Shown one piece after another: positions 17,957-57,475 of a stretch of DNA of 57,756 nt. The notes under the pieces are model-generated. The model was given only the letters and a program-made list of their open reading frames with translations. It did not search any database and was not told where the DNA came from. The DNA comes from Escherichia phage vB_EcoS_PJ16. The position numbers and the translations under genes are program-made. The stretch lies in the sequence record OQ955832.1; one strand, written 5' to 3'. Numbering within the stretch: position 1 is the stretch's first letter; every line of letters starts with the position of its first letter.

Positions 17957-18304
17957 ATGAATCCGAACATCAGAGTTGCTACAGACGAATTCATTCGTCG
18001 CGCCCGTAAAGTTCACGGTGATCGTTACGACTACTCATTCAGCATTGTTGAAGATAGTTCCAGCACAGTGGTTATTATTGACTGTGAAACTAACACAGTG
18101 TTTTTCCAGGTTGTCGCTGAACATCTGGACGGTGTTGAACCAGTAACGACTGCTGTTGAACCAGTAACGACTGCTGTTGAATCGATCAAGAATCTTTCTG
18201 AGACATTCGGTAACGTTGCAAACAGCGTGTATCACCAGTGCAATTATTCATCTGAAATGTTAGAATTTAGTCATGTTGAAACAATACGAGGACAATCCCC
18301 GTGA
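17957..18304 (+). CDS. Hypothetical protein with degenerate zinc-ribbon-like N-domain and VEPVTTA repeat
   Basis: Track ORF 17927-18304 trimmed to ATG 17957; DEFIRRARKVHGDRYDYS matches N-domain of 26624-27235 protein but lacks Cys ligands. Confidence 0.45.
   Translation: MNPNIRVATDEFIRRARKVHGDRYDYSFSIVEDSSSTVVIIDCETNTVFFQVVAEHLDGVEPVTTAVEPVTTAVESIKNLSETFGNVANSVYHQCNYSSEMLEFSHVETIRGQSP
18134..18175 (+). repeat. 21-bp tandem repeat x2 (in-frame, VEPVTTA)
   Basis: gttgaaccagtaacgactgct repeated exactly. Confidence 0.8.
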
Positions 18305-39787: not shown

Positions 39788-41644
39788 TTACCGAAGTGGT
39801 GCAACGAGTTTTTCAGCTTCTTTGATGTAAAAATCATAATTGAGTGTTGCCCGGTTAAAACGTTTCATGTCGTTACATTCCGTGGTCAACCAACCTTTAC
39901 ACACGGACATGCGGCGTTCAGGCGCGTCAGGGTTCAGTTTCAGTGATTTTGCCAGCGGTGGCATGACTTTTGTCAACGGTGCACCATCTGTACTGACGTA
40001 ATAACGGGTAATGTTCTGAACCTGTTTATCACCCCATAATAACTTGCTGTTACGCGGTACTTTCGTCACCAACATAAAATCGTGAATGTCTTCGTGTGAT
40101 GTTATAAAATCACGAATGTCTTTATTGTGTACCAGTGCTGCTTCAGCCGCTTTTGCGACAACCTGCATACTGTGGTTTTGATGCCAACCAAGGTCAACAC
40201 TGTGGCAATAAGCACCTTTACGTTTAACTTTCTTACCACCTTCATAAACAGCGATGTAGTTATTTACATCGCGGATAAACATCACGTCATAAATCGCTTC
40301 TTCAAGCTGGAGTCTGGTTAATTTTTCCCACGCGTGACGAACCTGTTCTACTTGTCCGATAAATACTCGTGGTACGTAAACAGTAAGACCATCTGTGTTA
40401 GCCTGAATCATGGATAAACCAGGGATTTTCAGAAGTTCTTCAGCCAACATGCACAAAAGTAACTGTCCATTAATCGTAATAGCCATTGTATAAGCAGGAT
40501 CGTAGAATGGACTGTATACGTTATTACTGTCACCATACACACCGTTTAATGCCAGTTTTAACATTGCATTTTCTGGTGTACCTTTCGGGTAACTGGAACG
40601 CATGTCATAAACATTTTTATAAATGGTGCAAAATTGTTTTCCCAAATGTGCAGGGTAAAGTTCATTACTAATCGCAAGGTTTGGATAAAAACTGGCAACA
40701 TCCAAATCGATGATCACATAATTTTCAGTGGACCTTATAGTTTGAGATTCAATAGACCCGTGGATACCACCCGTACCAAAATCAAACGAGAACCCGTTAA
40801 TATCTGCGCTTAAATCAGTAAACACACCTTTTGTTTCAGTGATGACCTGTTGACGTAACCAGTTAAGAACACGATTAAATTCAGGCTGTTCAAAACGGAC
40901 ATAAGGGAAAATCACGCTGTTCAATGCGATTGATAGTCTGTGCGTCTGTCGTGGTTTTCTGCTACCCGGTTCGAAACATTGAATACCTGATTTTTCAAGT
41001 TCCATAATGAAATAGTCTTTACCGATTTTCGTGTCATTATGGTTCATGAAATTACGACCGTATTTAGCAGAAAGTTCACGACGAAAATCTATCAGCTTTT
41101 TACTGTGTTTATAAAACATCAAAGTCGCTTTCAAATCGTGTATCAGATATTGACGAAGCGTATCAATTTGAGAATTGGTTAAATAAGTCCCTGGTGTAAA
41201 CGGGAGGTCTTCAATGTTTTCCATTCTCATATTGAATTCAAGTGTTTTCAGACTTGTTCGTTTTGCCTGATTGTCGAAATGATGAATTTTATACAAATCA
41301 AGCTGGGGAACTATCCAGTCTTTTTCCCACACCATATGAGCAAAACGATTTTCATCACCAGCGTTAATTATCGAATCACCTTTTTTGTAAATGTCTGCGT
41401 TGGTGATATACATGATGTTGTTCAAAATAGAATGCTGAACAGGATAGTCGTAACCCAGATTGTTATAACCAACTTCTTCAGCACGATGTTCACGCAAATA
41501 TTCTGTGAACAGGTAAAAAGCCTGACGATCGTCGCGACGATGTGAAATCTCAAAAATATAAGGTGTTTCAGTTAATGCGTGAATAGCACCGAACAGGAAA
41601 ACATTAGGATAGTTTTCAATATCGTGAACGTAAGCATCTGACAT
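39788..41644 (-). CDS. DNA polymerase, family B-like (compact)
   Basis: 618 aa; motif A DLDVASFYPNL, motif B KLALNGVYG, motif C-like ANTDGL, exo I-like HDIEN. Confidence 0.75.
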   Translation of the reverse strand: MSDAYVHDIENYPNVFLFGAIHALTETPYIFEISHRRDDRQAFYLFTEYLREHRAEEVGYNNLGYDYPVQHSILNNIMYITNADIYKKGDSIINAGDENRFAHMVWEKDWIVPQLDLYKIHHFDNQAKRTSLKTLEFNMRMENIEDLPFTPGTYLTNSQIDTLRQYLIHDLKATLMFYKHSKKLIDFRRELSAKYGRNFMNHNDTKIGKDYFIMELEKSGIQCFEPGSRKPRQTHRLSIALNSVIFPYVRFEQPEFNRVLNWLRQQVITETKGVFTDLSADINGFSFDFGTGGIHGSIESQTIRSTENYVIIDLDVASFYPNLAISNELYPAHLGKQFCTIYKNVYDMRSSYPKGTPENAMLKLALNGVYGDSNNVYSPFYDPAYTMAITINGQLLLCMLAEELLKIPGLSMIQANTDGLTVYVPRVFIGQVEQVRHAWEKLTRLQLEEAIYDVMFIRDVNNYIAVYEGGKKVKRKGAYCHSVDLGWHQNHSMQVVAKAAEAALVHNKDIRDFITSHEDIHDFMLVTKVPRNSKLLWGDKQVQNITRYYVSTDGAPLTKVMPPLAKSLKLNPDAPERRMSVCKGWLTTECNDMKRFNRATLNYDFYIKEAEKLVAPLR

Positions 41645-41724
41645 AATAAAATCCTGATAAGTAAATGGGGCGCTATGGCCCCATGTCTGTTTAAAGCGGT
41701 ATGTCGTCCCAGTTCCAGTAACTA

Positions 41725-42588
41725 TCAGTAACCGTTACCGTTGAGAAAATTAGGGGCCGGGGTGGTCATTACCATATAACCGTTAGCGATCAGTTGTTCA
41801 TCGTTCCAACCTTGCGCAATAAACTGTTCGTAAGTTGCACCACCTGCTTTTTCAGTCATTACCTTCACAGGCGCTGCTACAGGTGCTGCCGCTGGTGTAG
41901 GCGCTGCTACAGGTGCTGCCGCTGGTATAGGCGCTGCTACAGGTGCTGCCGCTGGTGTAGGCGCTGCTACAGGTGCTGCCGCTGGTGTTACGCCGATCGG
42001 ACGTGCACCTTCAGGCATTGCAGGTGCAGCACCGAACACAGAGGCCGGAGCCGGACCGGAAATGATTTCTTCACCTGCATAAAGCAATTGCGCCATTTCC
42101 ATATTGATATACACACCAGCCTGATTACCTGTACGACCGTTTGCAACAGATGACCCGCTGATACGGTAGTAATACCCTTTTTTCGCCAGATTTTTATCAA
42201 TAACTGGCTGGTACGCTGCGTTATAAACAGGACACGCGTCAATAGCCACGTTGCGTGAGAAACCAATAACCCAGTGACCAGCATAACCCGTTTTACTCGC
42301 ATGTTTCGGATCGTCACCGTTAATAATTTTCCATGCGAAAGTTGGTTGTTGTGGTTCGCCGTTCACATAGTGTGAGTTAGCCGCTCGCATGATCGCCTGG
42401 AATACCGTACCCAGTTCACCTTGTTCTTCCCACCAGTTCGCCGCTGTTTTAGGAAACGCCAGACCAACCCACCAGTTATGTTTTTCAGGTGCTAACGGTT
42501 TATTTTCGTGGTCATGAGTGTTGATGTCGAAAAAAGAACCGCCAACCAGACGACCAACCGGAGTTACAAAAGATTCTTTCTGTGCCAT
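41725..42588 (-). CDS. ssDNA-binding-like protein (DUF2815-like, putative) with Pro/Ala repeat linker
   Basis: N-terminal VTPVGRLVGGSFF pattern; four PTPAAAPVAA repeats; sits between nuclease and polymerase. Confidence 0.4.
   Translation of the reverse strand: MAQKESFVTPVGRLVGGSFFDINTHDHENKPLAPEKHNWWVGLAFPKTAANWWEEQGELGTVFQAIMRAANSHYVNGEPQQPTFAWKIINGDDPKHASKTGYAGHWVIGFSRNVAIDACPVYNAAYQPVIDKNLAKKGYYYRISGSSVANGRTGNQAGVYINMEMAQLLYAGEEIISGPAPASVFGAAPAMPEGARPIGVTPAAAPVAAPTPAAAPVAAPIPAAAPVAAPTPAAAPVAAPVKVMTEKAGGATYEQFIAQGWNDEQLIANGYMVMTTPAPNFLNGNGY
41871..41990 (-). repeat. 30-bp tandem repeat x4 (in-frame, Pro/Ala-rich)
   Basis: gcgctgctacaggtgctgccgctggtgtag repeated with 1-2 substitutions. Confidence 0.85.
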
Positions 42589-42603: not shown

Positions 42604-43749
42604 TTAAAGTGGACGTGCGCCAGTCGGCATCGTCACGGGTTTATTAAAAACAGATTCTGCCAGTGTGCTGTGACCTTTACGCGGGTCACTGTCAGGTACT
42701 AAAACTGGCTGACCTTCTGGTTTTGTAGTACACATGTCAACAAGTGCCGGGGGCAGTGATTTTTCCAGTGTTGACAACGGTTTTAATTTACGTTCGTACA
42801 ATGTTTCAGGGTTTACACCAAACATGGGTGCAGCACCGATCAGTTTTCCTTCGTCCGTAAGCTGACGTCGGGTTTGCTTTGTTGCGAGTTTAAAACCCGG
42901 TAAAGCCTTACCCATGCGAACAAAATGTAACCCCTGAGTATGTAACGCTGTTTTTGCTTCAGAAGAACGCGTATACAGTTCTTCAAGAAGTGCCAGACGA
43001 CGCGCTACTTCTTCTGGCGTAAGTGATGCTGGTGCATCAAGAACAGTAGCCAATTCTAAAACCCTCTCATACATCGCCGGACACATACCACGCGCCGGAC
43101 AGTAATGACAATGACTACCAACATTTAACGGTGCGTCTGGTTTATGTGCTTCGTTAAACCCGTGTTTAAATCGTTCAACCCAGTCCATCAATGTCACCCG
43201 GTTAAACTCCCATCGTCTTACAGGTCCGAGTGGGTGATAAGCCCGTGGCTGAACGATTGTGAACACAACACGCTTAACAGTATCAATACAACGTTGATCC
43301 AGTGCGTAATAGATCCCCTGTGAGTTATCAACTGCTTCAACTGCAACATGACCGTATTTATAATCCCATACGTAAAGCGTATCAGTATTAAAGTCATACC
43401 AGCGATAATCACAGGTTCCGTACTGACCGGGTAACAACCAGTCAATGTGAATGCGAACTTCTGAAAACAGCGGATCGAGTTTCGCACCAACTGAAAGAAC
43501 ATCTGCTATAAAGTCATCCGCGTAAATGTGCATGTCTTCAGTAACCTGAACACCGTTAGGAGCAAGACACGGCATTAATGGCGGTTTACCTTTAATCTTC
43601 TGTTCTAACACCCAGTGCCCGGCTGTACCTTCTTCAGCACTGGGTGACGATGGTTCTACATAGTCAATCCGCTGTGACAGTTGAACGCTACCCGGACAAG
43701 CTAACCAACGTTTTGATCCACTGGCACTAAAGGTAGCGTGACTTGTCAT
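42604..43749 (-). CDS. PD-(D/E)XK nuclease, DUF2800 (Cas4-like) family
   Basis: N-terminus HATFSASGSKRWLACPGS and C-terminal Cys cluster CHYCPARGMC. Confidence 0.65.
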   Translation of the reverse strand: MTSHATFSASGSKRWLACPGSVQLSQRIDYVEPSSPSAEEGTAGHWVLEQKIKGKPPLMPCLAPNGVQVTEDMHIYADDFIADVLSVGAKLDPLFSEVRIHIDWLLPGQYGTCDYRWYDFNTDTLYVWDYKYGHVAVEAVDNSQGIYYALDQRCIDTVKRVVFTIVQPRAYHPLGPVRRWEFNRVTLMDWVERFKHGFNEAHKPDAPLNVGSHCHYCPARGMCPAMYERVLELATVLDAPASLTPEEVARRLALLEELYTRSSEAKTALHTQGLHFVRMGKALPGFKLATKQTRRQLTDEGKLIGAAPMFGVNPETLYERKLKPLSTLEKSLPPALVDMCTTKPEGQPVLVPDSDPRKGHSTLAESVFNKPVTMPTGARPL

Positions 43750-44501
43750 CAGAATGCCCCACCCATTTGTTTAACAGACTCAGCCTGACCGACAATATTT
43801 TCAGCATCAGCAGGGGCAGCGTTGATACGTTCAATCAGTTCGATGATAGATTTCAGTTTCACCGGGTCATCAATTTGCATCACGTTCTGAGTTTCATACA
43901 GTCCCATGATTCGCTGACTTAACGGCGCAGCACGGTCACCCGTAATTTGTCCAAACATCTGCATCAGTGCTGACTGAAGAACCTGGGTGTTATAAACTTT
44001 AGCCGGATCCGTGGTTACAGGTTGCTCAGCAGGCGCGACTGGTGCTGCTGGTGCTGCTGGTACAACTGGAGCTACCGGAGCGGCAGGAACCGCTGGAGCA
44101 GGATCAACAGGTGCTACATAACCCGGTGCAAGTTCTGCAGGTCCAGTATAACGCCCTGCTTCAACTGCTTCAGCGATAAGTTCACGTTTAACACCGTCAA
44201 CAAACGCTTCATCCAGTTTTTTCTTCTGACGCCACAGACCGTCACCTTTGTTCAGGGATTTACTGTCAGTGTGGATACGCGGATCATGACGCAAACCCCA
44301 TTTGTCGAACTCTTCAGTGCTGGTTTCGTTATCGTCAACATCTTCAGTTGGTGCAGATACAACAGGTAGTGATTCAGCAACGACAGAAACGATTTCTTCT
44401 TTCGTAATCGGTGAGACACTTTTACCAGCAATCGCCGCTGCCAGATTGTTGATCGCAGTTTCCAGACCCGGAGCAGTTACAAGTAATTTAACTTCGAACA
44501 T
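43749..44501 (-). CDS. Hypothetical protein with Pro/Ala-rich linker (250 aa)
   Basis: Track ORF; first gene after promoters 44557/44620. Confidence 0.5.
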   Translation of the reverse strand: MFEVKLLVTAPGLETAINNLAAAIAGKSVSPITKEEIVSVVAESLPVVSAPTEDVDDNETSTEEFDKWGLRHDPRIHTDSKSLNKGDGLWRQKKKLDEAFVDGVKRELIAEAVEAGRYTGPAELAPGYVAPVDPAPAVPAAPVAPVVPAAPAAPVAPAEQPVTTDPAKVYNTQVLQSALMQMFGQITGDRAAPLSQRIMGLYETQNVMQIDDPVKLKSIIELIERINAAPADAENIVGQAESVKQMGGAF

Positions 44502-44676: not shown

Positions 44677-47355
44677 GTGAGTCAACAACCACTTCGTTAT
44701 TACCAACAAGATGCAGTTAACAACGTGCGCCAGGCATGGTCGAACGGTGCTAATGACGTGATTCTTGTGCTTCCCACTGGCTGTCATGCTAAAGACAGTG
44801 AAATTCTTATGTACAACGGTGATGTTATAAAAGTACAGGATGTTTTACCTGGTGATTTATTGATGGGTCGTGATTCATTACCACGAACCGTGTTAGCGTT
44901 AGCTCGTGGCAGAGAAGAAATGTTTGAAATCATCCCAGTCAAAGGGTCACCTTTCCGTGTAAATAAAAATCACATATTACATTTGATACATACTGAATCA
45001 AAAGAAGAAATAGACATTTCTGTAAGTGATTACTTACAGAAATCAAATTATTTCAAACATTGCCACAAGTTGCTTCGTACGGGGGTTGATTTCGAATATC
45101 GCGAACCACCGACTTTAGACCCGTGGTTTGCCGGGATTATGATCGGTGATGGTAGTTACAAATCAGGTACACCACGTCTGACAAATGCAGACTCAAGTAT
45201 TTTAGAAAAGGCTACTTTTTACGCAAACCTTTTTGGATGTGTCTGCAAAGATGTAAAAGGTAACAACTGTGTTACACGTTATTTCGGTTATCCCGGGTCA
45301 TCGCGTTCGGTTAGTAACCCGTTGAGCGATGCGATGAAATCTGATGGATTGTGGGGGAAAATCGCACATGAAAAATCAATACCTGATGTGTATAAAAAAG
45401 GAAGCAGAAACACACGTTTAAACGTTCTGGCAGGATTAATTGATAGCGACGGATATATTTCACATAAGGGCGTTGATTTTGTGTCCAAATCACAGCAGTT
45501 AGCCGCTGATTTAGTGTTCGTTGCAAGAAGCCTGGGGAAAGCCGCGTATTACAAAGCCTGTGTTAAATCATGTCAAACGGGTAATGCAAACATTTACTAC
45601 AGAGTGAGTATTAGTGGCGATTTAAGCGATGTACCATTCGTTAGAAAACATGGTGATTTAACGAGAAAGCAGAAGAAAAATCATTTAGTAACGGGCTTTT
45701 CTGTTCGGTCTGTTGGTGAAGATAATTTTTATGGTTTTATGGTTAACGGTGACAATCTTTATCTTACGTCAGACTTCATCATCCATCATAACAGTGGTAA
45801 AACACGTACTATGGCTGAACTACTAAAATCCGACGGTGTAAAAGTCATCCAGGCACACCGCAAAGAACTAGTTAGTCAAATCGCAATGGCTGTTGCTCGC
45901 CAGGGGTTAGCACACAGATTTATAGCGCAAAAAGATACTGTTAAGTTTGCAACTAATCAGCAGATGAAAACGCTTGGTTACAGTACCTATTCCCCCGGTG
46001 CTGACATCGTTATTACCAGTTCACAAACGTTAAGAACAAAACAGTACGAACGATGGTACAACGACGTGTCTCTTGTATTCAGCGACGAAGCGCATCACCT
46101 GGTGCGTGGCACACAGTGGGGAGACTGCCGGGAAAAATTCCCTAACGCTAAAGGTCTGGGTGTTACAGCCACACCGATCCGTGCTGACGGTAAAGGCCTG
46201 GGTCGTCATGCATCAGGTTACGCAGATCAGATGATCATTGGTCCGTCAATGCGTGAATTAATCAGTCAACAACACCTGGCTGATTATCGTCTGATCATGG
46301 CTGAAACAGACCTGGAATTAACCGCAGAAATGATTTCTCATACGACGGGTGATTACAAACCATCTGCGTTAAAAAAAGCGATGGAAGATTCAAACATTGT
46401 TGGTGATACCGTTAGTACGTGGAAAACGTATGCAGATGGTTTACTCACTGTTGTGTTTACGTGTGATGTGGATTCTGCTGAAGCACTTGCAAAAGAATTT
46501 CGCGATGCTGGCATTCCTGCAGAGGCGATCAGTTCACGAAACAGTAATCAGGAACGAGCGGATATTCTGGAACGTTTTGAACGACGTAAAACACTCGTGC
46601 TATGTAACAACGATTTATTCGGTGAAGGATACGACTGTCCGGCAATGGAATGTGCAGTAATGGATCGCCCCACAGAATCTTACTCTTTGTTTGTACAACA
46701 AATGGGTCGACCATTGCGTTTCAAACCCGGTAAAAAAGCACTGATTATTGATAAAGTCGGTAATGTTCGTCGATTTCTGGCCCGTGGTTTTCCACTTCCT
46801 GATCAGCATTACAACTGGTCTTTAGATGACCGTGACCGTCGTTCATCTAACAGCAGTGGGAACAGTAATACAACATGTACAAACAAGGGTGATCCTGATA
46901 ATGGTATTCCACCGTGTCTGAAGCCTTATCCGTCTGGTCTTCCGTGCTGCCCGTATTGTGGTCATGTTCCTGAAAAAGCCGAACGCTCAGGCCCGGATCG
47001 TGTAGAAGGTAATTTACGTGAACTGACACCTGAAGAACTGGAAGAATTACGCCGGGCAGTGGTGATAATCGACCGTGACCCTGTTGCAGTAAAAGAACAA
47101 ATGTTAAACGCGGGTGCACCCCCTGTTGCAGCTTACAGTGCAATGAAAAACATTCAGGCAATGAACGATGCACAGCGTAAGTTACGCAGCATGATCACCA
47201 CATGGGCAGGTATTCAGCGTGATAAAGGTATACCCGTTGATGACGCTTACAAGATGTTTTACAGGGTGTTTGGTGTTGATGTACTTAGTGCACAGGGCTT
47301 ACGTACTCGTGAAGCTAATGAACTCGCCGCAAGGGTTGCAAGTTCATTAATCTGA
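44677..47355 (+). CDS. SF2 DEAH-type DNA helicase, intein-containing precursor
   Basis: GTG start with AAGGA RBS; Walker A split as LPTG / SGKT by intein; DEAHH, TATP, QQMGRPLR motifs; C-terminal CxxC zinc ribbon. Confidence 0.85.
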   Translation: MSQQPLRYYQQDAVNNVRQAWSNGANDVILVLPTGCHAKDSEILMYNGDVIKVQDVLPGDLLMGRDSLPRTVLALARGREEMFEIIPVKGSPFRVNKNHILHLIHTESKEEIDISVSDYLQKSNYFKHCHKLLRTGVDFEYREPPTLDPWFAGIMIGDGSYKSGTPRLTNADSSILEKATFYANLFGCVCKDVKGNNCVTRYFGYPGSSRSVSNPLSDAMKSDGLWGKIAHEKSIPDVYKKGSRNTRLNVLAGLIDSDGYISHKGVDFVSKSQQLAADLVFVARSLGKAAYYKACVKSCQTGNANIYYRVSISGDLSDVPFVRKHGDLTRKQKKNHLVTGFSVRSVGEDNFYGFMVNGDNLYLTSDFIIHHNSGKTRTMAELLKSDGVKVIQAHRKELVSQIAMAVARQGLAHRFIAQKDTVKFATNQQMKTLGYSTYSPGADIVITSSQTLRTKQYERWYNDVSLVFSDEAHHLVRGTQWGDCREKFPNAKGLGVTATPIRADGKGLGRHASGYADQMIIGPSMRELISQQHLADYRLIMAETDLELTAEMISHTTGDYKPSALKKAMEDSNIVGDTVSTWKTYADGLLTVVFTCDVDSAEALAKEFRDAGIPAEAISSRNSNQERADILERFERRKTLVLCNNDLFGEGYDCPAMECAVMDRPTESYSLFVQQMGRPLRFKPGKKALIIDKVGNVRRFLARGFPLPDQHYNWSLDDRDRRSSNSSGNSNTTCTNKGDPDNGIPPCLKPYPSGLPCCPYCGHVPEKAERSGPDRVEGNLRELTPEELEELRRAVVIIDRDPVAVKEQMLNAGAPPVAAYSAMKNIQAMNDAQRKLRSMITTWAGIQRDKGIPVDDAYKMFYRVFGVDVLSAQGLRTREANELAARVASSLI
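44782..45792 (+). mobile_element. Intein with double-LAGLIDADG homing endonuclease in helicase P-loop
   Basis: Begins with Cys after LPTG, ends HN before Ser; LAGLIDSDG and FAGIMIGDG motifs; 337 codons in frame. Confidence 0.8.
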
Positions 47356-56640: not shown

Positions 56641-56672
56641 CTAAAAAGCGGGGCTAATTACCCCGCTATCTT
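56641..56672. terminator. Bidirectional terminator hairpin
   Basis: Stem agcgggg/ccccgct; T-run on minus strand side after the 56672-57475 gene. Confidence 0.6.
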
Positions 56673-57475
56673 TATTGACCCATCATATCTTTATACATCA
56701 TCAAAACAACATCATCCGGCATATTATCTACATCGCAATGCGGGTTATGTGATAACGCATACAGTCTGATTTTCTCCTTCAAATCGCTGACATCGACTAC
56801 AGGTGCTTCCACTCGTGTTACAGGTGCTTCCACTCGTGATACAGATGCTTCCACTCGTGCTACAGGTGGTTCCACTCGTGCTACAGGTGGTTCCACTCGT
56901 GCTACAGGTGGTTCACAAACCATCACGTTAAACGGTGTTCCGGTGCCTTCGTATTTTTCAAGCAAATCGACCATTACGTTTACACATTCCGGGATCCAGC
57001 CCCGGCGCAAACCATTCTGAATCCAACTGTCAGTAATTGTGTGTTCGTTTAAATTCCTGCGTAACACGTATCTTGCACATTCAAAATTACCGCACATCGC
57101 CTCAAACCGTGTCCACACGTCGTGACCGTGAACAGCTTCCAGGATCTGTGAATCAACGTATCTGACACGTTGCCAGTAGTTATTAGCAAAACGCCTGTGT
57201 GGTAATTTCTGACGCAGTTCGGTAACCGGTATTGTGTGTTTAAGAACAATGTTTTCGTCAGAATGTTGTACTGTCAAGGGTGACAGTGTGAAGTCAGTAA
57301 TCTCTTCAAGAATAATACTGATCGTTTCATATTTAGGATGAAACCTACCGCTTAACCATTGATTGTAACGACCAACAGTTACCTTAACACCTCGACGATT
57401 AAGGTATTCAACAGCATTTTGTACCCCGCCTTTTAAATCTATCAATTCGTCTAAAAGGTTCTTTTTCATTATCAC
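56672..57475 (-). CDS. Hypothetical protein with VEPPVAR heptad tandem repeats (267 aa)
   Basis: Strong RBS AGGAGGGG; 21-bp in-frame repeats near C-terminus. Confidence 0.55.
   Translation of the reverse strand: MIMKKNLLDELIDLKGGVQNAVEYLNRRGVKVTVGRYNQWLSGRFHPKYETISIILEEITDFTLSPLTVQHSDENIVLKHTIPVTELRQKLPHRRFANNYWQRVRYVDSQILEAVHGHDVWTRFEAMCGNFECARYVLRRNLNEHTITDSWIQNGLRRGWIPECVNVMVDLLEKYEGTGTPFNVMVCEPPVARVEPPVARVEPPVARVEASVSRVEAPVTRVEAPVVDVSDLKEKIRLYALSHNPHCDVDNMPDDVVLMMYKDMMGQ
56799..56916 (-). repeat. 21-bp tandem repeat, about 5.5 copies (in-frame)
   Basis: acaggtgcttccactcgtgtt and variants, read directly. Confidence 0.85.

What the first reader, a model, noticed from the sequence alone, without database searches (positions are those of the whole stretch)
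41871..41990. 30-bp tandem repeats encoding a PTPAAAPVAA linker in the SSB-like protein
Four nearly identical 30-bp units form a Pro/Ala-rich flexible linker before the C-terminal tail of the putative ssDNA-binding protein. The neighbouring gene (43749-44501) also has a PAxPVAP-rich segment.
Basis: seen in the sequence. Interest (0 to 1): 0.4.

Follow-up and report, generated by a model that had tools for sequence, protein, structure and literature searches.

The report
Variable-length linker repeat in phage SSB
Four in-frame 30-bp repeats encode a floppy proline/alanine spacer in a phage single-stranded-DNA-binding protein; related phages carry from about 1.5 to 10 copies, which makes this an ordinary length-variable linker already flagged in sister genomes.

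Summary
Four 30-bp units lie at 41870-41989 with 2 mismatches in 120 bases. TRF scores them 233, against at most 66 in 80 shuffles. They sit in frame in the minus-strand gene 41725-42588 (287 aa).

Residues 1-190 model as a T7 gp2.5/Enc34-type OB fold, and the repeats form a low-confidence Pro/Ala segment. The window is the genome of Escherichia phage vB_EcoS_PJ16 (Sashavirus-like).

In relatives the flanks are almost constant, but the linker ranges from 15 to 97 aa through in-frame gain and loss of identical-codon units, so this is a coding VNTR. GenBank already marks it "direct tandem repeat region" in phages Sasha and Sergei, and RefSeq already names the protein a Gp2.5-like SSB.

One correction: the C-terminus is not the acidic tail typical of SSBs. 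It is a conserved 34-aa predicted beta-alpha-alpha-beta mini-domain followed by a short peptide ending in Tyr. This mini-domain has no Pfam or NCBIfam model and no structural match. It occurs in at least 1000 protein clusters, mostly phage SSB tails, sometimes in 2-4 copies.

The repeat is low in interest; the mini-domain is moderately interesting.

The parts
41725..42588 (-). Gene for the 287-aa T7-gp2.5-type ssDNA-binding / annealing protein (WKV24577.1 of Escherichia phage vB_EcoS_PJ16, annotated there as 'hypothetical protein').
   Evidence: ORF list. PHROG 7011 at E 8e-98. Pfam PF10991 Enc34_ssDNA-bd at 25.6 bits against a cut-off of 26. Foldseek hits to 4jg2, 4klk, 5odj and 1je5. Exact-sequence look-up.
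41992..42588 (-). Residues 1-199. This is the OB-fold DNA-binding domain (about 1-175) plus a conserved post-OB segment, EIISGPAPASVFGAAPAMPEGARPIG.
   Evidence: pLDDT of 90-98 for residues 1-190 with an OB-like strand pattern. Invariant and near-invariant columns R13, G17, K47, F84, K87, D92, G178, F185, P192 and G194 in 89 homologues.
41869..41991 (-). Residues 200-240: the Pro/Ala linker encoded by the four 30-bp tandem units (array 41870-41989).
   Evidence: TRF. Pattern search. Codon table. Block pLDDT of 54/46/46/65 for residues 201-240. Composition A20 P12 V5 T3 I1.
41767..41868 (-). Residues 241-274, VKVMTEKAGGATYEQFIAQGWNDEQLIANGYMVM. This is a conserved C-terminal mini-domain with predicted beta-alpha-alpha-beta topology.
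   Evidence: pLDDT of 94-97 in the full-length model and 91-95 in a domain-only model. Invariant G10, Y13, G20, W21 and G30 in 31 diverse copies. Present in 104 of 121 homologues by a local HMM. At least 1000 representative proteins match at E<=1e-3.
41728..41766 (-). Residues 275-287, TTPAPNFLNGNGY. This is a short, low-confidence C-terminal peptide with the motif P-x-P-x-F-L-x-G and a terminal Tyr.
   Evidence: pLDDT below 50 for residues 282-287. The motif is conserved in the Sashavirus/9NA group at the C-terminus. In many distant homologues it lies inside the linker, e.g. PNPAFLAGPGG.
41665..41684 (-). Terminator-like GC hairpin 40 bases downstream of the SSB stop codon.
   Evidence: Consensus scan. 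The Sasha, Sergei and AVIO78A records annotate a terminator at the equivalent place.
42604..43749 (-). Upstream gene in the same transcription direction: a DUF2800 / PD-(D/E)XK exonuclease, the likely partner nuclease of the annealing protein.
   Evidence: Pfam DUF2800 at 1.9e-56 and PDDEXK_1 at 4.6e-6. PHROG 69 'exonuclease'.
43749..44501 (-). Neighbouring 250-aa gene of unknown function (phrog_27827). It has its own Pro/Ala/Val-rich segment at 44016-44114 (residues 130-162), with small 9-bp copy-number differences among relatives.
   Evidence: TRF 44039-44061, period 9.
39788..41644 (-). Downstream DNA polymerase gene. Literature places the basal polymerases of this phage clade in family B. 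It is a candidate partner of the SSB tail.
   Evidence: PHROG 1252 'DNA polymerase' at 4e-214. PMC11348598 on the Sashavirus/Nonanavirus clade.

Best explanation
The 30-bp array is a protein-coding variable-number tandem repeat. It encodes an uncharged, disordered Pro/Ala spacer in the C-terminal tail of the phage's T7-gp2.5-type ssDNA-binding/annealing protein. The spacer joins the DNA-bound OB domain to a small conserved C-terminal mini-domain and a short peptide ending in an aromatic residue.

By analogy with the tails of T7 gp2.5 and E. coli SSB, this C-terminal unit most likely recruits or regulates replisome or recombination partners. That step is inferred, not shown. The spacer sets how far the C-terminal module can reach from ssDNA-bound protein.

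The units are perfect 30-bp copies with identical codons. They are therefore gained and lost in frame by replication slippage or unequal annealing and recombination. Selection tolerates a wide range of lengths (15-97 residues) as long as composition and reading frame are kept.

Shown: the repeat, its frame, the OB fold (predicted), the low-confidence linker, the length polymorphism, and the conservation of the mini-domain. Inferred: flexibility, the slippage mechanism, and the partner-binding role of the C-terminal module.
For: The repeat is real and in frame.

The fold is of the T7 SSB type.

The linker has pLDDT of about 46-54, while both flanks exceed 90.

In 11 complete genomes the 199-aa N-terminal part and the 47-aa C-terminal part keep their length and are near-identical. 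The linker is 21, 23, 27, 37, 41, 57, 59, 65, 85, 97 or 97 aa. Every difference is in frame and uses the same codons, CCT ACA CCA GCG GCA GCA CCT GTA GCA GCG. A wider sample adds lengths of 15, 17, 35, 47, 51 and 87 aa.

Phage 9NA has 7.0 perfect copies of a different 30-bp unit encoding ATPAPVAAPV at the same place. Other lineages have 17-aa, 12-aa, 7-aa or 5-aa units, or no repeats.

Across 173 homologues the linker is 0-145 aa (median 58), with P 30.5%, A 26.9%, V 9% and G 8.3%. Tails are only 3.6% acidic, and only 12 of 173 linkers are tandemly repetitive. Composition is therefore conserved, not the DNA repeat.

The mini-domain is conserved and predicted to fold on its own. It occurs in 1-4 copies separated by further P/A linkers. 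In some proteins it is followed by the canonical SSB tip ...DDLPF or DDEIPF, which places it in the partner-recruiting part of SSB tails.

Literature: T7-type SSB tails interact with polymerase and helicase (PMC5686142). E. coli SSB consists of an OB domain, a 56-aa disordered linker and a 9-residue tip that binds partners (PMC7145534).
Against: No experiment shows that this protein binds ssDNA, that the linker is flexible, or that the C-terminal module binds anything.

The Pfam PF10991 score is just under the gathering threshold (25.6 against 26).

Some copy-number differences could be short-read assembly errors. Many database entries for this protein are 'partial' and break at the repeat.

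A wide tolerated length range fits a passive spacer, but it does not exclude length-dependent tuning.
Confidence: 0.78

Rival explanations
1. The linker length is an adaptive tuning knob (a contingency-type locus). Rapid gain and loss of units changes SSB reach, cooperativity or condensation. Alternatively it helps the phage match different host replisome factors or escape host defences that sense phage SSBs. Copy number would then be under diversifying selection rather than drifting.
For: Length variation is extreme (15-97 aa) among phages whose flanking protein sequence is about 99% identical. Repeat arrays have arisen independently, with different units, in several lineages of the family. 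The same phage genus carries a second coding VNTR in another gene. In E. coli SSB the disordered linker affects cooperativity and condensation (10.1101/2022.01.17.476650 and PMC12143593).
Against: There is no phenotype data. Only 12 of 173 homologues have repetitive linkers, so repetitiveness is not a conserved property. Perfect 30-bp repeats are expected to be unstable without any selection.
Confidence: 0.12
2. The repeats act at the DNA level as iterons of a replication origin (or another protein-binding array) embedded in a replication gene. Phage lambda is the model: its ori iterons lie in the linker-coding part of gene O.
For: The array consists of directly repeated 30-bp units (about three helical turns) inside a replication-module gene, in a part of the protein that tolerates sequence change. 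No origin has been mapped for these phages, as far as I could find.
Against: The unit has no internal dyad, and there are no inverted repeats within 500 bp. There is no AT-rich unwinding region next to it: the lowest GC nearby is 0.35-0.36 against a genome mean of about 0.44, and the array itself is 65% GC. The 30-mer occurs nowhere else in the genome. Copy number ranges from about 1.5 to 10. 9NA, with the same replication genes, has a different 30-bp unit. Most homologues have non-repetitive linkers of the same composition. Cumulative GC skew follows transcription direction and shows nothing specific at this site.
Confidence: 0.03
3. The Pro/Ala repeat is itself the functional element, not a spacer. 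It would be a multivalent binding or condensation sequence that contacts partner proteins directly, as proposed for PxxP motifs in the E. coli SSB linker.
For: The composition is strongly conserved across 173 homologues. Literature debates a direct partner-binding role for the E. coli SSB linker (PMC7145534 and PMC10164576).
Against: The unit PTPAAAPVAA contains no PxxP spacing; prolines are 2 or 4 residues apart (sequence). Linker sequence and length are not conserved, and some homologues have almost no linker. The cited E. coli studies largely find that the tip, not the linker, binds partners (abstracts).
Confidence: 0.07

Closest known systems
T7 gp2.5 / Enterobacter phage Enc34 ORF6 (T7-type SSBs, Pfam PF10991 = DUF2815)
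   Same: The predicted OB-fold variant is the same (Foldseek probability 1.00 to 1je5, 5odj, 5odl, 4klk and 4jg2). It falls in the same PHROG family label. The genomic setting is also the same: next to a nuclease, a DNA polymerase and a helicase.
   Different: [quoted passage not shown] Here the tail is 88 residues with 4 acidic residues. It consists of an uncharged Pro/Ala repeat, a folded mini-domain and a Tyr-terminated peptide. Sequence identity to the solved structures is only 14-18%.
E. coli SSB C-terminal tail (56-aa intrinsically disordered linker plus 9-residue acidic tip)
   Same: The logic is the same: an OB domain on DNA, a low-complexity disordered linker of loosely constrained sequence, then a conserved terminal element ending in an aromatic residue (PMC7145534). 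Some proteins that carry the same mini-domain end in DDLPF or DDEIPF, the canonical tip.
   Different: The OB family is different. The linker is Pro/Ala/Val-rich rather than Gly/Gln/Pro-rich and is built from perfect tandem units. A folded mini-domain sits between the linker and the terminus, and there is no acidic tip in this phage.
'Direct tandem repeat region' annotated in Salmonella phages vB_SenS_Sasha (NC_047786, 39904-40074) and vB_SenS_Sergei (KY002061, 42836-42946)
   Same: This is the orthologous gene with the same 30-bp unit and the same codons. It is the same locus in sister genomes.
   Different: Copy number differs: the linker is 57 aa in Sasha, 37 aa in Sergei and 41 aa here. 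The window has a Thr-to-Ile change in unit 3 and an extra VAAP at the end. The records give no interpretation of the repeat, and I found no paper that discusses it.
Ala/Pro-rich inter-domain linkers of 2-oxo-acid dehydrogenase E2 chains (own knowledge, not tested here)
   Same: These are uncharged (Ala, Pro)-rich segments of 20-30 residues. They act as extended, flexible tethers that let a small folded domain swing between partners.
   Different: The proteins are unrelated. The E2 linkers are not perfect DNA-level tandem repeats and are not known for large copy-number polymorphism.
Lambda ori iterons inside gene O
   Same: Both are direct repeats located in the linker-coding part of a replication gene.
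   Different: There is no dyad symmetry, no adjacent AT-rich region, no conservation of the DNA unit in 9NA, and highly variable copy number.

Membership tests
T7-type SSB (gp2.5 / Enc34 ORF6 / DUF2815, PF10991) | OB-fold variant structurally similar to gp2.5 and Enc34 ORF6 | tested here: met
   AF2 model pLDDT above 90 for residues 1-190. Foldseek against the PDB: 4jg2 at 1e-8, 4klk at 1.3e-7, 5odj at 3.3e-7, 1je5_B at 4.1e-7, all probability 1.00, TM (target-normalised) 0.56-0.74. This is a prediction, not a solved structure.
T7-type SSB (gp2.5 / Enc34 ORF6 / DUF2815, PF10991) | Sequence match to the family profile above the curated threshold | tested here: inconclusive
   Pfam PF10991 scores 25.6 bits against a gathering score of 26 (E 1.1e-5, residues 63-187). 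PHROG 7011 matches at E 8.3e-98 over residues 2-274. There is no NCBIfam hit. Several homologues carry a precomputed PF10991 hit.
T7-type SSB (gp2.5 / Enc34 ORF6 / DUF2815, PF10991) | Long acidic C-terminal tail (stated for all four solved members in PMC5686142) | tested here: not met
   The tail (residues 200-287) has 4 Asp/Glu and 2 Lys/Arg in 88 residues. Tails of 196 homologues average 3.6% acidic. This is a divergent subgroup, not a canonical member in this respect.
T7-type SSB (gp2.5 / Enc34 ORF6 / DUF2815, PF10991) | Preferential binding of ssDNA; strand annealing | not testable with these tools
   Needs EMSA and annealing assays with purified protein.
Protein-coding VNTR (length-polymorphic tandem repeat) | Head-to-tail units of high identity, unit length a multiple of three, in frame | tested here: met
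   There are 4.0 units of 30 bp at 97% identity, in frame in the ORF.
Protein-coding VNTR (length-polymorphic tandem repeat) | Copy number differs among close relatives while the flanks are conserved | tested here: met
   Linkers span 15-97 aa in Sashavirus-like sequences, with a constant 199-aa N-part and 47-aa C-part. Caveat: some values come from short-read assemblies.
Intrinsically disordered inter-domain linker | Low-complexity composition, no predicted structure, length and sequence not conserved while the flanking domains are | tested here: met
   pLDDT of about 46-54. 78% Pro+Ala. Length 0-145 aa across 173 homologues with conserved composition. Actual disorder was not measured.
Iteron-type replication origin | Repeats conserved as DNA among relatives with the same replication proteins; adjacent AT-rich unwinding element; often internal dyads | tested here: not met
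   9NA has a different 30-bp unit. There are no inverted repeats. No AT-rich flank is present. Binding by an initiator cannot be tested here.
LysM or other known beta-alpha-alpha-beta / helix-hairpin domains (considered for the C-terminal mini-domain) | Profile or structural match to the family | tested here: not met

The most novel reading that the evidence does not exclude
The repeat tethers a previously undescribed, autonomously folding module of about 32 residues (consensus xxMTxKAxGATYEQFIAxGWTDxxLxAxGxM). In a large clade of T7-type phage SSBs this module replaces the 'universal' acidic SSB tail. The same module also occurs in DUF669-type SSBs and in at least two other families of phage replication-module proteins, in 1-4 copies strung on Pro/Ala linkers. 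On this reading it is a new, portable recruitment or self-association domain of phage replisomes. The VNTR would be how these phages adjust its reach.
Probability: 0.4. Interest if true: 0.55.

Novelty: new member of a known kind. Interest (0 to 1): 0.27.

Why it matters
The repeat itself matters little. It is a textbook coding VNTR in a disordered linker, already flagged in sister genomes.

It has three practical consequences:

- It breaks or collapses short-read assemblies of these phages. Many database copies of this protein are 'partial' at exactly this point.
- It offers a simple PCR typing marker for Sashavirus-like therapeutic phage candidates.
- It is a natural linker-length series (15-97 residues) for asking how far an SSB tail must reach.

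The more interesting by-product is that this clade of T7-type SSBs lacks the acidic tail regarded as characteristic of bacterial and phage SSBs. Instead it carries a conserved mini-domain with no family assignment. If that module is the partner-binding element, it defines a different way for phage SSBs to organise their replisomes.

Tried and rejected
1. Origin or iteron reading. Rejected on the absence of dyads, AT-rich flank and dispersed copies, and on the different unit in 9NA.

2. Chi-like reading. The unit contains GCTGGTGT, a 7/8 match to Chi, but there is no exact Chi site anywhere in the window. The near-match is simply the reverse complement of the codons Thr-Pro-Ala.

3. Identifying the mini-domain. 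All attempts failed:
- Pfam at E<=10 and NCBIfam.
- A word-indexed profile search, which returned only 30-81-aa fragments. Most are C-terminal pieces of such SSBs called from an internal Met.

4. My first guess that the proteins ending in DDLPF are DUF669 SSBs was wrong. They have no Pfam hit, and their N-domains fall in PHROGs 862 and 6599 of unknown function. DUF669-type SSBs with the mini-domain are other proteins (P0269, P0285).

5. A by-eye resemblance between a motif in the neighbouring gene (FDKWGLRHDPRIHTDSKSLNKGDGLWRQKKK) and a motif in mini-domain-bearing proteins P0215, P0229, P0254 and P0304 was not supported by BLASTP. A homologue search of the neighbour returned only relatives of at least 89% identity among the 120 listed, so the link could not be tested.

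6. The genomic context of P0215 (locus L012) showed a phage replication module but gave no functional clue.

7. A sequence search of the PDB found only chance low-complexity matches (Bcl-2 loop) and a weak 4jg2 hit.

8. No paper discussing this repeat was found.

Full report
**Observation**

Tandem Repeats Finder reports one array at 41869-41988: period 30, 4.0 copies, 97% matches, no indels, score 233. That is the best score in the window. A pattern search with the unit GGCGCTGCTACAGGTGCTGCCGCTGGTGTA finds exactly four hits, at 41870, 41900, 41930 and 41960, with 0/1/0/1 mismatches. There are none elsewhere, and none in 100 shuffles. In 80 shuffles of my own the best TRF score was 66.

The array lies in the minus-strand ORF 41725-42588 (287 aa). 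It is in frame and encodes VTPAAAPVAA-PTPAAAPVAA-PIPAAAPVAA-PTPAAAPVAA-P, residues 200-240.

**Identity of the window and the gene**

The exact protein is WKV24577.1 of Escherichia phage vB_EcoS_PJ16. Its contig is 57,756 bp, the length of the window. The closest phage records are Sashavirus members: BDX09P1, Solent, Sergei, Sasha, Bas82, AVIO78A and PDP46. Klebsiella phages and Salmonella phage 9NA are more distant.

The evidence for the SSB assignment is as follows:
- PHROG 7011 'Gp2.5-like ssDNA binding protein and ssDNA annealing protein' matches at E 8e-98.
- Pfam PF10991 (Enc34_ssDNA-bd, formerly DUF2815) scores marginally: 25.6 bits against a cut-off of 26.
- An AlphaFold2 model built on 89 homologues has pLDDT of 90-98 for residues 1-190.
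- The nine significant Foldseek PDB matches are all T7-type SSBs: 4jg2, 4klk, Enc34 ORF6 (5odj/5odk/5odl) and T7 gp2.5 (1je5), with E from 1e-8 to 8e-6 and probability 1.00.

The gene sits in a minus-strand block. In order:
- a promoter-like site at 44562-44534;
- a 250-aa protein of unknown function (phrog_27827);
- a DUF2800 / PD-(D/E)XK exonuclease;
- the SSB;
- a terminator-like hairpin at 41665-41684;
- the DNA polymerase.

**The repeat is a coding VNTR**

I extracted the orthologue from ten related complete genomes. The N-terminal 199-200 residues and the C-terminal 47 residues keep their length and are nearly identical. The segment between '...PIG' and 'VKVMTEK...' has these lengths:
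- 21 aa in 536P12
- 23 aa in BDX09P1
- 27 aa in Solent
- 37 aa in Sergei
- 41 aa in the window
- 57 aa in Sasha
- 59 aa in phi_KPN_H2
- 65 aa in Carvaje
- 85 aa in PDP46
- 97 aa in Bas82 and in AVIO78A

Every unit uses the same codons, CCT ACA CCA GCG GCA GCA CCT GTA GCA GCG. All differences are in frame. Most are whole 30-bp units; some are 12-bp (PVAA) or 6-bp sub-units. Members of the 90%-identity clusters add lengths of 15, 17, 35, 47, 51 and 87 aa.

AVIO78A carries an internal A/T marker pattern across ten units that assembly collapse cannot produce, so at least part of the variation is real. One caveat remains: many database entries are 'partial' and break at the repeat. Short-read assemblies therefore struggle here, and some low counts may be collapsed.

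GenBank already annotates this array as a 'direct tandem repeat region' in Sasha and Sergei. RefSeq already names the Sasha and 9NA proteins Gp2.5-like SSBs. I found no paper that discusses the repeat.

**What is conserved is composition, not the repeat**

Phage 9NA gp66 has 7.0 perfect copies of a different 30-bp unit, GCGACACCTGCGCCTGTAGCCGCTCCTGTT, encoding ATPAPVAAPV, at the same position. Other lineages show other units or none:
- a 17-aa unit, APGGVPAPAAMAPVTPP, in four copies;
- a 12-aa unit, PPAAPAPAAYAP;
- a 7-aa unit, QQQAPVT;
- a 5-aa unit, AAPVA;
- no repeats at all.

I then examined 173 homologues that have both the OB domain and the C-terminal module. The linker runs from 0 to 145 aa, with a median of 58. 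Its composition is P 30.5%, A 26.9%, V 9.0% and G 8.3%. Only 12 of the 173 have an exact tandem of at least 2.5 copies. Tails average 3.6% acidic and 2.4% basic residues. In the model the repeat is the only internal low-confidence stretch, with block pLDDT of 54/46/46/65. This is the signature of a disordered spacer whose length and sequence drift, with occasional local expansion by slippage.

**What the linker connects to**

It is not the acidic tail that the Enc34 structure paper describes as characteristic of all bacterial and phage SSBs and of all four solved T7-type SSBs (PMC5686142). The 88-residue tail has 4 acidic and 2 basic residues.

Residues 241-274 (VKVMTEKAGGATYEQFIAQGWNDEQLIANGYMVM) are predicted with pLDDT of 94-97 in the full-length model. 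In a domain-only model the score is 91-95, with strand-helix-helix-strand topology. Thirty-one diverse copies share invariant G10, Y13, G20, W21 and G30. A local HMM finds the module in 104 of 121 homologues, twice in six of them. An exhaustive profile search of 1.84 billion representatives gives at least 1000 proteins at E<=1e-3 and 277 at E<=1e-10, many with 2-4 copies.

Among the 139 newly returned best hits, 77 have the same OB domain by my local HMM. Of the 42 longer hits without it:
- 15 match PF10991, and 5 match DUF669, an SSB family in PHROGs 6015 and 378;
- some have N-domains of unknown function (PHROGs 862, 6599 and 27714);
- some of these end in the canonical SSB tip ...DDLPF.

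The last 13 residues, TTPAPNFLNGNGY, are low-confidence. They carry a P-x-P-x-F-L-x-G motif that lies inside the linker in many distant homologues. The terminal aromatic recalls the essential C-terminal Phe of T7 gp2.5 and of the E. coli SSB tip (own knowledge; PMC7145534).

**Mechanism proposed**

- Shown or predicted: OB domain on ssDNA, then an uncharged extended P/A spacer of variable length, then a mini-domain plus an aromatic-ended peptide.
- Inferred: the distal module recruits or regulates a replisome or recombination partner, and the spacer sets its reach. Candidates are the adjacent polymerase, helicase, exonuclease or the SSB itself.
- Inferred: copy number changes by slippage or by annealing between perfect 30-bp units, and a broad range is tolerated.

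**Rivals**

A DNA-level role such as iterons is unlikely, for these reasons:
- there are no dyads;
- there is no AT-rich flank, and the array is a local GC peak at 0.65;
- there are no other copies in the genome;
- the unit differs in 9NA;
- most homologues have non-repetitive linkers.

An adaptive 'tuning knob' reading cannot be excluded and is the main alternative. A direct binding role for the P/A sequence is weakened by the lack of PxxP spacing and of sequence conservation. Chi mimicry was checked and dismissed.

**The neighbouring gene**

Its Pro/Ala/Val-rich segment (residues 130-162, window 44016-44114) is real. It shows small 9-bp (APV) copy differences among relatives. The protein has no Pfam domain. 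Its 'helicase' and 'TonB receptor' labels in some records are not supported.

**Verdict**

This is a further member of an already annotated kind, of low interest in itself. The moderately interesting by-product is the non-acidic SSB tail with its unclassified mini-domain.

Noticed in passing
window 44782-45774 (within helicase gene 44677-47355, + strand): The DEAD/SNF2-type helicase carries a 331-aa intein with Hint and LAGLIDADG homing-endonuclease domains. It starts with Cys after LPTG and ends with His-Asn before SGKT, so it is inserted in the Walker A loop. All ten related phages compared, and 9NA, have the uninterrupted 553-aa helicase.
   Followed up: partly
window 56797-56914 (gene 56672-57475, - strand, phrog_25538, unknown function): This is a second coding VNTR: 5.6 copies of a 21-bp unit encoding PPVARVE/APVTRVE heptads. 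The orthologous gene spans 741, 762, 783, 804, 888 and 972 bp in relatives, in steps of 21. It is also annotated 'direct tandem repeat region' in Sasha and Sergei.
   Followed up: partly
window 44039-44061 (gene 43749-44501, - strand): A small 9-bp repeat (2.6 copies) lies inside the neighbour gene's Pro/Ala/Val segment. Relatives differ by single APV units. The 250-aa protein is labelled 'helicase' in PJ16, AVIO78A and PDP46 and 'putative TonB receptor' in Solent, but it has no Pfam domain at all. These labels look like annotation errors.
   Followed up: partly
proteins P0189-P0327; e.g. P0194, P0245, P0269, P0317; locus L012 6001-7152: The SSB's C-terminal mini-domain is a mobile module. It occurs in 1-4 copies in DUF2815-type and DUF669-type SSBs. 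It also occurs in proteins with N-domains of PHROGs 862, 6599 and 27714 (unknown function), some ending in the canonical SSB tip DDLPF. OB-less proteins such as P0215 carry it too, and P0215 sits in a PolA/SNF2-helicase replication module. No family model exists for it.
   Followed up: partly
window 41728-41760 and homologues P0013-P0119: A short motif P-x-P-x-F-[LA]-x-G (PAPNFLNG here) is at the extreme C-terminus in the Sashavirus/9NA group. In many distant homologues it lies in the middle of the linker, before the mini-domain (PNPAFLAGPGG), as if the order of tail elements had been permuted.
   Followed up: partly
database entries P0452-P0475: Many public copies of this SSB are 'partial' proteins of 200-252 aa or 44-51-aa fragments. 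They end or start at the repeat, which shows that short-read assemblies often break or collapse here.
   Followed up: no
window 18133-18181: A perfect 21-bp tandem repeat (2.3 copies, TGTTGAACCAGTAACGACTGC, TRF score 98) was not examined further.
   Followed up: no
window 39788-41644 (- strand): The 618-aa DNA polymerase has no Pfam-A or NCBIfam hit and is recognised only by PHROG profiles. Literature places the Sashavirus/Nonanavirus clade among phages whose basal polymerases belong to family B, within a clade that shows polymerase swapping.
   Followed up: no
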